Shown here: in pieces, positions 3,509 through 9,223 of the stretch
Numbering within the stretch: position 1 is the first letter of the stretch
Layout: each line of letters starts with the position of its first letter
Origin: Candidatus Aenigmatarchaeota archaeon
GTDB lineage: Archaea > Aenigmatarchaeota > Aenigmatarchaeia > CG10238-14 > SCSR01
NCBI GenBank assembly: GCA_030616125.1
Contig: JAUWXZ010000001.1
Location: 1-31,635 of the forward strand
Reading direction: 5' to 3'
DNA length: 31,635 nt
Made by a program: the position numbers and the translations under genes
Notes under the pieces: model-generated
The model's database searches: none
Seen by the model: the letters and a program-made list of their open reading frames with translations, nothing else
Told to the model about the DNA's origin: nothing

Positions 3509-5017
3509 ATGGCTAAAAAGAAGAAAGAAGAAAAAACAGTTGGAGAAATTTTAAGTGAAGAATATGCTAAACAGAAAACAGCTGAGCCAGAAGAAATTGA
3601 ACCAAAAAAACCCGAAGAGCCAAAGATAGAATCAAAAATAAAAATTGAAGAAGAGATAGATTTAAGAAAACTTCTGATGGATGTAGAAAAACTTGGAGCA
3701 GAGGTCAATGCTTTAAAAGAAGTAAAATTTCATGCCGATGAAATAATAAAAGAACTTGCCGAGAGCATAGGAGAAATTAGATCTTTATTATTTCAAAGAG
3801 ATGCAACCATAAAAGAAACTGGAGCAAAAATTGATAAAATTGAAGAAATTGTTTCTGAAATAAAACCGGAAAAAATAGCGAGTCAGCTCAGAAAAAGAGA
3901 AGCAGAGATTAGTGAAAACATAGCAAGAATAGAAAAACTTGAAAGAATGTCAAAGGATTTGCTCGATCAAATAAGAAAATCACAAAAAATTCTTGAAAAT
4001 ATAAAAAGTATGGAAAATTTAGTTGAAATAACTAAAGATATAGAATCAAAACTTGAAAAAATTGAAGAACTTAAATCTGGAACAGAAAGAGAAGCTGGAA
4101 AAACGGAAAAAATTTATCTTGAGATGGGTAGAAGGTTTTCAGAATTTTCAGCCTTTAAAGAAAAAATAACAAAAGTTGAAGAATTAAGCAAAGAATTGGT
4201 CAAGAGTTTGGATGAAGTTAAAATTAAACTTGAGAATACAGTGAGTAAAGAAGATATGCAATCAGCTTTAGAAGACGCTTTAAAACCTCCAGAGCTTGGA
4301 GCAGATGTCGAGGAATTAAACAAAAGAAAAAATGAGATTCTAAGTCTTTTGAAAAATTTAGGAGATCAGTTCAGGCAAGGGCTCATATCAAAAGAAAGCT
4401 ATGATGAAGTTGTTGAAAAAAACAAAAGTATACTTCAGCAGATAGAGAATGAGGTAAAAGAAGCAGAAACTAGAAAAAAACCTGAAAATTTGATTGCGTG
4501 GTTAAACCAGATTGAAGAGAAAATAAAAGATTTGGAACTAAAAACCAGCGTCATCGAAAAAAGTAAGGTTTCAAGAGACACCGAAGAAATGAGAAATCAA
4601 ATTTCAAGTATAAAAGAAGACTTGGAAAAACAAAAGGCAATGATGGAGGATATTTTAGGATTACAATTAACTCAAAAAACTTTGACTGATGAAACAAGCG
4701 AAAAGAAAGCTAGAAAACTAGAGATAGAGTCTATTAAAAGTTTATTAGCGACTTTGGAAGATCAATATAGGGAAGGAGTTATTTCTGAAAAAACTTATAT
4801 GGAAACAAAAAGCAAAAACTTGGAACGGCTAAGGGAAAAACCTGAAATCAAAAAAGAGTCTGAAATAAAAATCCCACCTGTTGAAACAGAAACTAAGAAA
4901 ACAAGTTGGGATGAATTAAGAGATGCATCATTATTAGCAAAAATAAAAGAGCTTAATGAAAAAATCGAAAAGTTATCAAAAAAGTCCGAATATCCTAGAC
5001 CAGTAATATTAGAATAA
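3509..5017 (+). CDS. Cytoplasmic long coiled-coil protein with two SHOCT/CdvA-like motifs
   Basis: 502 aa, E/K/I/L-rich with heptad character and no signal peptide or TM. Contains LLKNLGDQFRQGLISKESY and LLATLEDQYREGVISEKTY. Starts 4 nt after the upstream stop. Confidence 0.75.
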   Translation: MAKKKKEEKTVGEILSEEYAKQKTAEPEEIEPKKPEEPKIESKIKIEEEIDLRKLLMDVEKLGAEVNALKEVKFHADEIIKELAESIGEIRSLLFQRDATIKETGAKIDKIEEIVSEIKPEKIASQLRKREAEISENIARIEKLERMSKDLLDQIRKSQKILENIKSMENLVEITKDIESKLEKIEELKSGTEREAGKTEKIYLEMGRRFSEFSAFKEKITKVEELSKELVKSLDEVKIKLENTVSKEDMQSALEDALKPPELGADVEELNKRKNEILSLLKNLGDQFRQGLISKESYDEVVEKNKSILQQIENEVKEAETRKKPENLIAWLNQIEEKIKDLELKTSVIEKSKVSRDTEEMRNQISSIKEDLEKQKAMMEDILGLQLTQKTLTDETSEKKARKLEIESIKSLLATLEDQYREGVISEKTYMETKSKNLERLREKPEIKKESEIKIPPVETETKKTSWDELRDASLLAKIKELNEKIEKLSKKSEYPRPVILE

Positions 5018-5025
5018 GTTTTTAG

Positions 5026-8200: not shown

Positions 8201-9223
8201 TTTCTAGTTTATTATTCTGGAACAGAAAAAGCAGGAGCCTATGAAACTTTTACAACGACTGAAGCCGCTCCTCCACCACCTTCTTACGGTCCACCAGCAG
8301 TTGCCCCACCAGTATCAAAAATGGAAATAACAATACACCCAGAAGAAATTGAAATTGAAAGGGGATGGCTAGATTACATGACTGTTAAAGTCAATAACAC
8401 AGGAGGAACAAATCTCCACGATGTCTATATAACTCTAGAAGATATTCCTCTGGACTGGATAGAAATTTCACCAGAGAAAGTTGATTTGATAATTCCAACA
8501 AATTTTTCAGAATTCAGTATAAAAATTGCAGTCCCAATAAATGCAAAGTCAGGAAATTATCTAACCAAAGTTAAAGCTATAGCAAATGAAACTTCGGCTG
8601 AAGAAAGTTTTATAGTTAGGGTTTTTGCCTCTCGAGCAGAACTGATCTTATATCAAATTCAAACCCTTAAAGATAAACTCGAAGACTTAGAACAAAGAAC
8701 AGCTGAAGCAGAAAATCAAAAAAAGAACGTTACTCTTGTAAAAAGTATTTTGACAGAAGCCAGAGATAGGATAACAAGTGCTGAAGACTATTTGGATCAA
8801 AAAAAGTATGATGAAGCAACAAATCTTGTAAGAAATGTCAGAGATATTTTAGCAAGAGCAGAGTATGAGCTAAAAGTTGCTAAGGTAATAGTAGCAGTTC
8901 CAATCATTGAACTTCTACCCTACTGGCTTCTCTTGATTACTATAATTTTAATAGTGATTGTTGTATTAATTTTATACATGCTAAGAAAAACAAAAACTTT
9001 TGGGAAATTGAGAGTAGCAGTTCCAGAGATAAGAAAAATGGTTTTAGGAAAAGAAACTCTAGTTGATTTGCGAAAAGAAAAAGAGAAAATAAACAAAATG
9101 TTAAGTCTTCTAGAAAAGGAATATAGACAGGGAATAATCTCGAAAGAAAGCTATGAAGAATTAAAAAAGACCAATGAAGAAAAGCTTAGGGGGATTGAAT
9201 TTAAACTTGGTGAGGAAAGATGA
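5282..9223 (+). CDS. Large secreted, C-terminally membrane-anchored surface glycoprotein (DUF2341-like N-terminus, Ig-like repeats, TM, cytoplasmic SHOCT/CdvA-like tail)
   Basis: Signal peptide MKKMILLLLALFFFIYFSPLAKA. WWNTNWHYKLPINIS resembles the start of DUF2341 domains. Dense N-x-S/T sequons, Pro-rich linker, TM LLPYWLLLITIILIVIVVLILYML, and tail MLSLLEKEYRQGIISKESYEELKK. Confidence 0.8.
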   Translation: MKKMILLLLALFFFIYFSPLAKAEWWNTNWHYKLPINISFASEAENASVNVTLNFTALLEQVGDDDKTFDPNSIRVIEDSYEHPHDWENETLTRGNVSWIANGTTPANTNRTFYVYFDVIENGAKSEGKIISEEPYWRSGYEDNMDVWSNQSTSPGIGYEWNRTWAQSLETYWKWCTEAPIYDYAYLYVDGSEVSQKYGTGSETILFQGNGLAARFTSDDSVIESCTDGYGTYGTAVDWVKFYETANYTTPAFSEFFGNTQTQYPPVLENFIVSPSLDGWGEYFNYTVDVSDRENDEVNVTLWVNKSTGWEKQETKTITPPGELYWYISIFSCSDIGARQYKFEYKDWAHDWENTSTQTGPTLENDDISLEYLTGNDTSVNREGNYNVTLGIRFKDLDKNQWVSGETVNFWVFYSSTWNQVGSNTSDTDGNTTFDFDPNCSVEVGNHNWKANYSNTCYKSNESDTFSFDVIGQLKNYLEKPLQDSVYWQGDQIPLEANVTDECTNFIIGAVVNFTLNETVDVCSADDKGDGTYNCTWDSSGKPLGNYSVRVNSSKSNYNFNSTLWEDRFSLETAPPSITINLSKYQIEQLDSLQINATVIDNSGTGIDWVKINVTRPNGTLDQENMTNLVSNIWSIDYPNSWGNTSERGTYNITVYAKDNVPKTGTSNDTFKVYIKLNVTLKTQEAIYYQGDTGRLEYTLKDMDNNSVANSNVTFEIKNPNQVLIWNDDNIISVTNQNGTIEPLPSFELASDDPIGQYRLYSFTSYWDTLAGVTVSKENNYTFNVSEKPVVEMLALSLEAPAEAAVGKKLQVSATVTDSVKNIDVDSAKTSLYDPLNNLIVDNVAMDHVSTGIYSRNYTTSSSSTQGNWKWIVNVTKGSNSIIKEIFTRLVGGPFDVRNITVIDNIIPDLSISVIIENKGDAGQDVTVEWNLTRTDTGKSLDSGAATIYIEGLSTKVHIVQPSTNYLGEVKITFLVYYSGTEKAGAYETFTTTEAAPPPPSYGPPAVAPPVSKMEITIHPEEIEIERGWLDYMTVKVNNTGGTNLHDVYITLEDIPLDWIEISPEKVDLIIPTNFSEFSIKIAVPINAKSGNYLTKVKAIANETSAEESFIVRVFASRAELILYQIQTLKDKLEDLEQRTAEAENQKKNVTLVKSILTEARDRITSAEDYLDQKKYDEATNLVRNVRDILARAEYELKVAKVIVAVPIIELLPYWLLLITIILIVIVVLILYMLRKTKTFGKLRVAVPEIRKMVLGKETLVDLRKEKEKINKMLSLLEKEYRQGIISKESYEELKKTNEEKLRGIEFKLGEER

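What the first reader, a model, noticed from the sequence alone, without database searches (positions are those of the whole stretch)
4333..9187. One helical motif occurs three times across two different proteins
Seen: EILSLLKNLGDQFRQGLISKESYDEVVEKN (~4333-4425) and SIKSLLATLEDQYREGVISEKTYMETKSKN (~4721-4822) in the coiled-coil protein, and KINKMLSLLEKEYRQGIISKESYEELKKTN (~9083-9175) as the cytoplasmic tail of the 1313-aa protein. The RQG.ISKESY core is identical in two copies. Established: L..L...G.IS..EY is the signature of SHOCT oligomerisation domains and resembles a segment of CdvA-like coiled coils. Inference: a homotypic docking module that ties the surface protein to a cytoplasmic scaffold. 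This is the most direct sequence evidence that the genes form one complex.
Basis: partly seen in the sequence, partly recalled or inferred. Interest (0 to 1): 0.68.

Follow-up and report, generated by a model that had tools for sequence, protein, structure and literature searches.

The report
Shared SHOCT-like hairpin in DPANN operon
A 29-residue helix-loop-helix module of the poorly understood SHOCT type occurs twice in a cytoplasmic coiled-coil protein and once in the cytoplasmic tail of the neighbouring giant surface protein; the pairing recurs across tiny symbiotic (DPANN) archaea, so it is the best candidate for how their surface machine is wired to its scaffold inside the cell.

Summary
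The three copies lie at nt 4334-4423, 4730-4819 and 9086-9175 (13-15 of 30 residues identical pairwise). They are the only matches in this 90%-complete genome. Profiles built only from other genomes' tails find the coiled-coil copies, and profiles built only from coiled-coil copies find the tail.

The pairing is general. In all 34 loci I examined, a soluble coiled-coil protein carries 1-4 copies and a neighbouring single-pass membrane protein (about 330-2114 aa) carries one copy 3-27 residues from its C-terminus. In 33 of 34 a HerA/VirB4-type ATPase end of a SPEARE-type giant lies directly upstream.

AlphaFold2 predicts all three window copies as helix, 5-residue loop (x-G-hydrophobic-I-S), helix. 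Profile-profile comparison places the module with SHOCT (95% and 87% probability; controls 1.1% or less), but the window copies score below Pfam's cut-off.

SHOCT is not an established oligomerisation domain: the one published test was negative. Direct tail-to-scaffold docking is my preferred mechanism (about 0.45) but is untested. A shared third partner or separate self-association remain open. CdvA resemblance is marginal.

This scan noted the same module before on other DNA (e.g. e1-1069700). I found no published description.

The parts
1..3504 (+). C-terminal part of a SPEARE-type giant surface protein, cut by the contig end: Ig-like glycosylated ectodomain, one TM helix, cytoplasmic HerA/DUF87 (VirB4-like) ATPase and a terminal coiled coil. 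It carries no copy of the motif.
   Evidence: Pfam DUF87 6.3e-13 and HerA_C 3.2e-7 at aa 796-893. All 30 sequons lie before the TM. A homologous ATPase end lies directly upstream of the coiled-coil gene in 33 of 34 loci. The architecture matches the published description in PMC10266531.
3509..5017 (+). 502-aa soluble coiled-coil scaffold protein (P0001) with two SHOCT-like hairpins. It starts 4 nt after the stop of the upstream gene.
   Evidence: No TM helix and 1 sequon. 46 homologues, all unannotated or DPANN-labelled. AF2 predicts it almost entirely helical.
4334..4423 (+). Motif copy 1 (P0001 aa 276-305).
   Evidence: AF2: helix to 289, loop 290-294, helix from 295, pLDDT about 87. Present in all aligned homologues, with N305 invariant.
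4730..4819 (+). Motif copy 2 (P0001 aa 408-437).
   Evidence: AF2: helix to 421, loop 422-426, helix from 427, pLDDT 85-91.
5073..5285 (+). 70-aa winged-HTH-like protein. Its stop overlaps the start of the next gene.
   Evidence: Sub-threshold HTH_11/HTH_24 matches. Homologue in the same position in 7 of 34 loci.
5282..9223 (+). 1313-aa surface protein (P0002): signal peptide, Ig-like/MG2 arrays, NEW3-type beta-sandwich, three-helix stalk, TM helix and an about 80-aa cytoplasmic tail.
   Evidence: Pfam MG2, Big_3_3 and NPCBM_assoc. AF2 of aa 1000-1313, mean pLDDT 85. 51 sequons, all in the ectodomain.
8927..8983 (+). Single C-terminal TM helix of P0002 (aa 1216-1234).
   Evidence: Hydropathy 3.48 over 19 residues. 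AF2 helix 1208-1236. Positive-inside rule: 5 K/R after against 1 before.
9086..9175 (+). Motif copy 3, in the cytoplasmic tail of P0002 (aa 1269-1298), 15 residues from the C-terminus.
   Evidence: AF2: loop 1283-1287 between two helices, pLDDT about 80-86. It holds 8 of the 27 invariant columns of the last 314 residues across 14 orthologues.
9220..9978 (+). MinD/ParA-type ATPase. Its start overlaps the stop of P0002.
   Evidence: Pfam ParA 2.6e-22 and CbiA 3.1e-17. Homologue found in 24 of 34 loci despite short flanks.

Best explanation
The three copies are one homologous, divergent SHOCT-like alpha-hairpin: helix, a 5-residue x-G-hydrophobic-I-S loop, helix.

Proposed mechanism: the single hairpin on the short cytoplasmic tail of the surface protein packs against the hairpins displayed by the neighbouring coiled-coil protein, forming small helical bundles. 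This would couple the surface protein to a cytoplasmic scaffold that is co-encoded, and apparently co-translated, with a SPEARE-type giant adhesin-ATPase and a MinD ATPase.

Shown here:
- the homology of the copies;
- their restriction to these two proteins in this genome;
- the hairpin prediction;
- the cytoplasmic location of all copies;
- the conservation of the pairing and of the four-gene order across DPANN archaea.

Inferred, not shown: that the hairpins bind each other directly.
For: - The motif is unique to the two genes in a 90%-complete genome.
- Reciprocal cross-family detection works with window-excluded models. Tail against coiled-coil profile gives 98.3%, P = 2.5e-14.
- All 34 loci show a soluble protein with 1-4 copies plus a TM protein with one copy 3-27 aa from its C-end. 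This holds even where the ectodomain shrinks to about 330 aa.
- 69 of 151 sampled genomes of the phylum carry the motif. The matches fall in two ORF size classes, mostly on one contig less than 10 kb apart.
- The tail copy is the most conserved copy (2.75 against 2.30 bits per position). It is the only conserved feature of the tail.
- AF2 gives the same helix-loop-helix for all three copies at pLDDT about 80-91. An isolated two-helix hairpin has too small a core to stand alone (inference).
- Gene junctions of 4 nt, an ATGA overlap and an ATGA overlap suggest co-expression.
- Tail copies are slightly basic (mean +1.0) and scaffold copies slightly acidic (mean -0.8).
Against: - No interaction was predicted or measured.
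- The only published oligomerisation test of a SHOCT domain was negative (PMC3581485).
- Homologous modules in neighbouring genes could equally bind a common third partner.
- I saw no convincing covariation between tail and scaffold copies. There are only three loss-of-Gly events in tails, with no matching pattern.
- The charge complementarity is small and the ranges overlap.
Confidence: 0.45

Rival explanations
1. Common third partner. Each hairpin independently binds the same other component: the MinD ATPase, the cytoplasmic ATPase or coiled-coil tip of the SPEARE-type giant, or the inner membrane leaflet. Scaffold and surface protein would then be recruited to the same place without touching each other through the motif.
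For: - MinD and the HerA-like ATPase are as tightly linked to the module as the two motif carriers (33 of 34 and at least 24 of 34 loci).
- SHOCT-like domains have been proposed to anchor domains to the inner leaflet (PMC11237479).
- SHOCT did not self-associate in the one published test.
Against: - The copies are near neutral to acidic (scaffold mean -0.8), which is unfavourable for direct binding of anionic lipids.
- The tail copy is already tethered about 35 residues from the membrane, so a membrane anchor there would be redundant.
- No motif-like or obviously complementary element was found in MinD or the ATPase.
Confidence: 0.3
2. Separate self-association. The hairpin is a generic homo-oligomerisation element. 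It would bundle surface-protein tails into multimers and, independently, drive higher-order assembly of the coiled-coil protein, with no specific cross-talk.
For: - The copy number in the scaffold varies from 1 to 4.
- SHOCT-type modules occur on many unrelated proteins, often at the C-terminus (PMC3581485).
- Small SHOCT proteins exist in the same phylum.
Against: - This particular subtype is essentially confined to the two partner families: 403 of 1.84 billion representatives at E <= 0.001, and those inspected are the two families or fragments of them.
- It always occurs in adjacent genes, which generic oligomerisers need not do.
- The published SHOCT oligomerisation assay was negative.
Confidence: 0.18
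3. Chance or compositional similarity between Lys/Glu-rich helices, with no shared origin or function.
For: Both proteins are rich in charged helical sequence. The Pfam hits of the window's own copies are all below threshold.
Against: - Window-excluded reciprocal HMMs detect the copies at E = 2e-7 to 7.5e-6, while the rest of the genome scores 0.07 or worse.
- Three other helical segments of the same protein family, and reversed or shuffled controls, give 1.1% or less in hhalign.
- G, I, S, E, Y and L are invariant in register across orthologues.
Confidence: 0.02

Closest known systems
SHOCT domain (Pfam PF09851; Eberhardt et al. 2013, PMC3581485) and SHOCT_2 (PF20612)
   Same: About 30 residues, two amphipathic helices and a central conserved Gly. 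The register G-x-I-[ST]-x-E-x-[YF] is the same, and there are no indels. The tail copy sits within 15 aa of the C-terminus. Profile-profile probability is 87-95%. The C-terminal third copy of an orthologue reaches the Pfam cut-off, at 27.0 bits.
   Different: The window's copies score only 13-17 bits. Two of the three are internal and embedded in a long coiled coil. Helix 1 carries a distinctive L-L-x-x-L-E-x-Q-Y pattern and helix 2 ends in K-N. The subtype is confined to one gene pair. SHOCT itself has no established function.
SHOCT-like bihelical domains of PSP-associated proteins (PMC11237479)
   Same: Divergent bihelical SHOCT relatives on cytoplasmic, membrane-proximal proteins, proposed to assemble membrane-associated complexes.
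   Different: Those are bacterial and partly detected by DUF1707. They are fused to Toastrack, band-7 or zinc-ribbon domains and are proposed to bind the inner leaflet. Here the module is paired between a TM tail and a soluble scaffold in archaea.
C-terminal half of gas-vesicle protein GvpG (Pfam PF05120, positions 29-67)
   Same: It is the most frequent Pfam match of the copies: 38 of 72 segments at E <= 0.1, best 5.8e-5. This includes window copy 2 (21.6 bits) and the tail (16.5 bits).
   Different: All matches are below the 30.6-bit cut-off. There are no gas-vesicle genes in the window. The N-terminal half of GvpG is not matched.
CdvA-like coiled-coil domain (Pfam PF18822)
   Same: Three orthologous segments match profile positions 54-94 at 20-23 bits. 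One orthologue matches positions 6-116 at 17.9 bits.
   Different: All matches are below the 30-bit cut-off, and none comes from the window's own copies. No PRC-barrel match was found in P0001. I did not look for cdvB or cdvC.
SPEARE-type giant surface protein loci of Nanohaloarchaeota and other DPANN (PMC10266531, re-analysing Hamm et al. 2019)
   Same: The upstream gene has the published architecture: Ig-like repeats, TM helix, VirB4/HerA-like ATPase and a terminal coiled coil.
   Different: The papers I could search describe the giant and a second ATPase. They do not describe the coiled-coil, tail-bearing surface protein or MinD partners, or their shared hairpin.

Membership tests
SHOCT (PF09851) | Score at or above Pfam's gathering threshold (27 bits) | tested here: not met
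   Window copy 1 scores 13.3-16.8 bits. Copy 2 has no SHOCT hit. The tail scores 15.5 bits on SHOCT_2. PF09851 finds nothing in G000 at E <= 0.01. An orthologue's C-terminal copy (P0046:429-467) does reach 27.0 bits.
SHOCT (PF09851) | About 30 aa forming two amphipathic helices joined by a short loop, without indels | tested here: met
   AF2 predicts helix, 5-residue loop, helix for all three copies at pLDDT about 80-91. 72 copies align in 44 columns without gaps.
SHOCT (PF09851) | Strongly conserved Gly and Glu plus conserved hydrophobic positions, in the SHOCT register | tested here: met
   G1284, I1286, S1287, E1289, Y1291 and L1294 are invariant in 14 orthologous tails. hhalign aligns G-x-I-S-x-E-x-Y onto G-E-I-T-x-E-E-F of bona fide SHOCT. 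Gly is replaced by Ala in 24 of 79 scaffold copies.
SHOCT (PF09851) | Located within 50 residues of the C-terminus (89% of members) | tested here: inconclusive
   The tail copy lies 15 aa from the end, so this is met. The P0001 copies lie 197 and 65 aa from the end, so this is not met.
SHOCT (PF09851) | Profile-level homology to bona fide members | tested here: met
   hhalign against 10 above-threshold SHOCT domains of the same phylum: scaffold copies 95.2% (P = 2.7e-8), tails 87.1% (P = 4e-6). 24 controls give 1.1% or less.
   This is not a defining feature. The founding paper's own assay did not support oligomerisation (PMC3581485).
CdvA-like coiled-coil (PF18822) | Score at or above the gathering threshold (30 bits), with the CdvA architecture (PRC barrel before the coiled coil) | tested here: not met
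   The window proteins have no PF18822 hit and no PRC-barrel match. 3 of 72 orthologous segments score 20-23 bits on profile positions 54-94.
GvpG (PF05120) | Score at or above the gathering threshold (30.6 bits) over the whole 67-position model | tested here: not met
   Best scores are 21.6 bits (copy 2) and 16.5 bits (tail), covering only positions 29-67. 38 of 72 segments match below threshold.
SPEARE-type giant protein module (context of the finding) | Ig-like ectodomain, single TM helix, cytoplasmic VirB4/HerA-like ATPase and C-terminal coiled coil in one polypeptide | tested here: met
   P0003 has Ig-like matches, a TM helix at about aa 745-770, DUF87/HerA_C at 796-893 and a helical C-terminus. 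The description is in PMC10266531. The N-terminus is cut by the contig end.

The most novel reading that the evidence does not exclude
The paired hairpins would be a dedicated tail-to-scaffold coupling device of a DPANN-specific trans-envelope host-contact machine made of a SPEARE-type adhesin-ATPase, a second surface protein, a coiled-coil scaffold and MinD. This would be the first context in which a SHOCT-type module has a defined job: heterotypic docking of a membrane-protein tail onto a multivalent cytoplasmic scaffold. The scaffold's copy number (1-4) would set how many surface proteins are gathered around each motor.
Probability: 0.35. Interest if true: 0.68.

Novelty: new variant of a known kind. 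Interest (0 to 1): 0.5.

Why it matters
DPANN archaea live attached to host cells, and how they hold on and exchange material is an open question. The SPEARE-type giant proteins are the leading candidates, but they have been discussed as stand-alone proteins.

This finding shows that the giant is followed, across much of a phylum, by a fixed set of partners. Two of these partners are marked by the same cytoplasmic hairpin. That gives a concrete, mutation-testable hypothesis for how the parts assemble.

It also gives the widespread SHOCT domain, whose function is unknown after more than ten years, a natural paired context in which binding can be assayed with two short peptides.

Tried and rejected
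- PDB sequence search with the motif profile. The only hits are non-significant (E >= 0.22), in the RNase W/FAU-1 C-terminal helices and FtsA. The RNase W paper gives no role for that segment. I rejected this as uninformative.
- Foldseek of the P0002 C-terminal model against PDB. It returns only generic Ig-like beta-sandwich matches and nothing for the stalk, TM helix or tail.
- The archaeal 'novel secretion system' around arCOG01314/arCOG02487 (PMC5898192). It has a different gene set (MoxR ATPase, vWA) and is not this module.
- The type IV filament link through the nearby A24 peptidase and MinD (PMC13705601). No filament ATPase or platform gene is in the cluster, so I did not pursue it.
- Covariation between tail and scaffold copies at the Gly position. 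There are only three tail events and no pattern.
- ESM Atlas search with P0001. It returned only unnamed DPANN clusters and generic coiled-coil families at scores below 0.9.
- Pfam scan of about 1000-aa and short proteins from the representative search. No other domains were found. One 173-aa hit showed a sub-threshold Condensation match, and the short ones I read are fragments or mini versions of the same two families.
It could not be run, because only single-chain prediction of unmodified sequences is offered.
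Full report
**1. The observation**

The window's plus strand carries a tight run of genes: 1-3504 (5'-open), 3509-5017, 5073-5285, 5282-9223 and 9220-9978. Translation gives the three quoted peptides exactly. They map as follows:
- P0001 aa 276-305, nt 4334-4423;
- P0001 aa 408-437, nt 4730-4819;
- P0002 aa 1269-1298, nt 9086-9175.

Pairwise identity is 13-15 of 30. The R-Q-G-x-I-S-K-E-S-Y core is identical in copy 1 and the tail copy.

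**2. Is it more than chance?**

The genome held for this window is 562 kb in 78 contigs and is estimated 90% complete. An HMM of the three copies, and a broader one built from 93 orthologous copies, find only these three places among 4705 six-frame ORFs. Everything else has E above 1.

Those models contain the window's own copies. I therefore built two models from other genomes only.
- A tail-only model (33 tails) finds the window's tail at 7.8e-15 and then both P0001 copies at 2e-7 and 4.2e-5. The next ORF is at 5.4.
- A scaffold-only model (77 copies) finds the P0001 copies and then the P0002 tail at 7.5e-6. The next ORF is at 0.07.

Profile-profile comparison of tails against scaffold copies gives 98.3% probability, P = 2.5e-14, over all 29 columns.

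**3. Topology and structure**

P0002 has a signal-peptide-like N-terminus and one strong TM helix at aa 1216-1234. There are 5 K/R in the 15 residues after the TM against 1 before it. All 51 N-x-S/T sequons lie before the TM. The roughly 80-residue tail is therefore cytoplasmic by inference. P0001 has no TM helix and a single sequon.

AlphaFold2 predictions:
- P0001, using a 29-sequence alignment, is almost entirely helical. The breaks fall exactly at the motif loops: helix 264-289, loop 290-294, helix 295-321; and helix 396-421, loop 422-426, helix 427-442. pLDDT there is about 85-91, although the global pTM is only 0.24.
- P0002 aa 1000-1313 has mean pLDDT 85. It shows a beta-sandwich, a three-helix stalk, the TM helix, then helix, loop 1283-1287, helix.

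All three copies are thus predicted as the same helix, x-G-hydrophobic-I-S loop, helix unit.

**4. Conservation and context**

P0001 has 46 detectable homologues. All are unannotated or labelled Nanoarchaeota or Aenigmarchaeota. The motif is conserved in them, and some carry extra copies at the N-terminus or at the very C-terminus. Orthologues of P0002 keep the tail motif almost unchanged while the rest diverges to 30-58% identity. It holds 8 of the 27 invariant columns of the last 314 residues.

A scan of 151 genomes of the phylum with the motif profile finds it in 69. Each typically has 3-4 matches, falling in ORFs of about 460-730 aa and about 1100-2100 aa, mostly on one contig less than 10 kb apart.

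I fetched 33 such loci. These were chosen from motif hits, so the pairing count is not an unbiased frequency. Results for the 34 loci including the window:
- In all 34, a soluble protein carries 1-4 copies, and a neighbouring protein carries one copy 3-27 residues from its C-terminus, roughly 35-70 residues after a TM helix.
- The membrane partner ranges from about 330 aa to 2114 aa. The small ones are just signal peptide, NEW3 sandwich, stalk, TM helix and tail. The stalk-TM-tail part is therefore the conserved core.
- In 33 of 34 loci the ORF directly upstream of the scaffold gene ends in an ATPase homologous to the P0003 ATPase (E <= 1e-74).
- MinD was found in 24 of 34 despite flanks of only about 1.4 kb.

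The upstream gene has the published SPEARE-type architecture: Ig-like repeats, TM helix, VirB4/HerA-like ATPase and terminal coiled coil. In the window the junctions are 4 nt, an ATGA overlap and an ATGA overlap, as expected for co-expressed subunits.

**5. What the module is**

Pfam scores of the window copies are all below threshold:
- SHOCT: 13-17 bits against a cut-off of 27.
- SHOCT_2: 15.5 against 24.
- GvpG positions 29-67: 16.5-21.6 against 30.6.

Across 72 orthologous segments, the number matching at E <= 0.1 was GvpG 38, SHOCT_2 14, SHOCT 13 and CdvA 3. The C-terminal third copy of one orthologue reaches the SHOCT cut-off at 27.0 bits.

I collected 10 above-threshold SHOCT domains from the same phylum. 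hhalign against them gives 95.2% for scaffold copies (P = 2.7e-8) and 87.1% for tails (P = 4e-6), in the G-x-I-[ST]-x-E-x-[YF] register. A reversed alignment, 20 column shuffles and three other helical segments of the same protein family give 1.1% or less.

I therefore call the module a divergent SHOCT-like hairpin. It is not a Pfam-threshold SHOCT member. The CdvA resemblance is limited to three orthologous segments at 20-23 bits on profile positions 54-94, and P0001 has no PRC-barrel match. I do not file it as CdvA-like.

In 1.84 billion representative proteins the profile finds 403 at E <= 0.001. The best 150 are mostly 450-760-aa proteins with 2-4 copies, or proteins with a copy at the C-terminus. 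Those I inspected are the two families or fragments of them, apart from one 173-aa hit with a sub-threshold Condensation-domain match.

**6. How it most likely works**

Eberhardt et al. proposed it, but their own assay did not support it (PMC3581485). A later comparative study proposed inner-leaflet anchoring and complex assembly (PMC11237479).

Even so, the genomic pattern argues strongly that the tail copy and the scaffold copies work together. The hairpin is the only conserved cytoplasmic feature of the surface protein. It is more conserved than the scaffold copies (2.75 against 2.30 bits per position). It is never found without a scaffold gene beside it in the loci examined.

My preferred mechanism is direct packing of the tail hairpin with scaffold hairpins into small helical bundles (confidence about 0.45). 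This would make the multivalent coiled-coil protein a bridge between the second surface protein and the SPEARE ATPase and MinD.

The main rival is a shared third partner such as MinD, the ATPase tip or the membrane (about 0.3). Direct lipid binding is disfavoured because the copies are near neutral to acidic. Independent self-association is third (about 0.18). Chance similarity is effectively excluded.

**7. Novelty**

I found no paper describing the scaffold, tail-bearing protein and MinD partners or their shared hairpin. This scan's own earlier notes describe the same module in other genomes (e1-1069700, e1-1172450, e1-724777, e1-3249403). I re-derived the pairing, the partner conservation and the SHOCT-likeness independently here. 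The SPEARE label came from those notes as a lead, and I checked it against PMC10266531.

The domain kind is known. The paired tail-and-scaffold deployment in a conserved DPANN module is a new variant.

**8. Limits**

- No interaction was computed or measured.
- The loci were picked from motif hits.
- AF2 global confidence for P0001 is low.
- Taxon names of the genomes are hidden, so 'DPANN' rests on source names of homologues.

Noticed in passing
window 3530-3553 and 5000-5014: The scaffold family has two further short conserved peptides outside the hairpins. One is an N-terminal E-K-T-V-G-E-I-L box (K9 and E17 nearly invariant). The other is a C-terminal P-[VLIY]-[IV]-[IL]-E end shared by about 10 of 29 aligned homologues. 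They are possible docking peptides for other subunits.
   Followed up: no
L032:10865-11866, L041:1480-2625, L042:1533-2612; protein P0172: 'Mini' versions of the surface partner (324-382 aa) consist only of signal peptide, NEW3-type beta-sandwich, three-helix stalk, TM helix and SHOCT-like tail. The variable Ig-like arrays of the 1100-2100-aa forms are therefore add-ons to a conserved membrane-proximal core.
   Followed up: partly
G120 contigs C20 and C11 (L042, L043); also G081 and G100: Some genomes carry two separate scaffold-plus-tail pairs, one with a mini partner and one with a partner of about 1950 aa.
   Followed up: no
genus g20 genomes G006, G010, G074, G079: In these four related genomes the scaffold gene and the tail-bearing protein of about 1930 aa lie on different contigs, unlike the adjacent arrangement elsewhere. 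I did not check whether this reflects assembly breaks or a real separation.
   Followed up: no
window 10285-11139: The ORF 10480-11139 gives no Pfam hit at E <= 0.001. The syntenic gene in L001 is a 285-aa protein with a weak Peptidase_A24 hit. I did not check that.
   Followed up: no
window 11772-13235: A GTPase (MMR_HSR1), OapB and OapC trio lies directly after the module. It is in the same order in L001, so the synteny extends beyond the surface-protein genes.
   Followed up: no
window 1-3504: The SPEARE-type gene runs off the 5' end of the contig. Orthologous upstream genes encode more than 3000 to 13735 residues, so the window shows only the last 1167 residues or so.
   Followed up: partly
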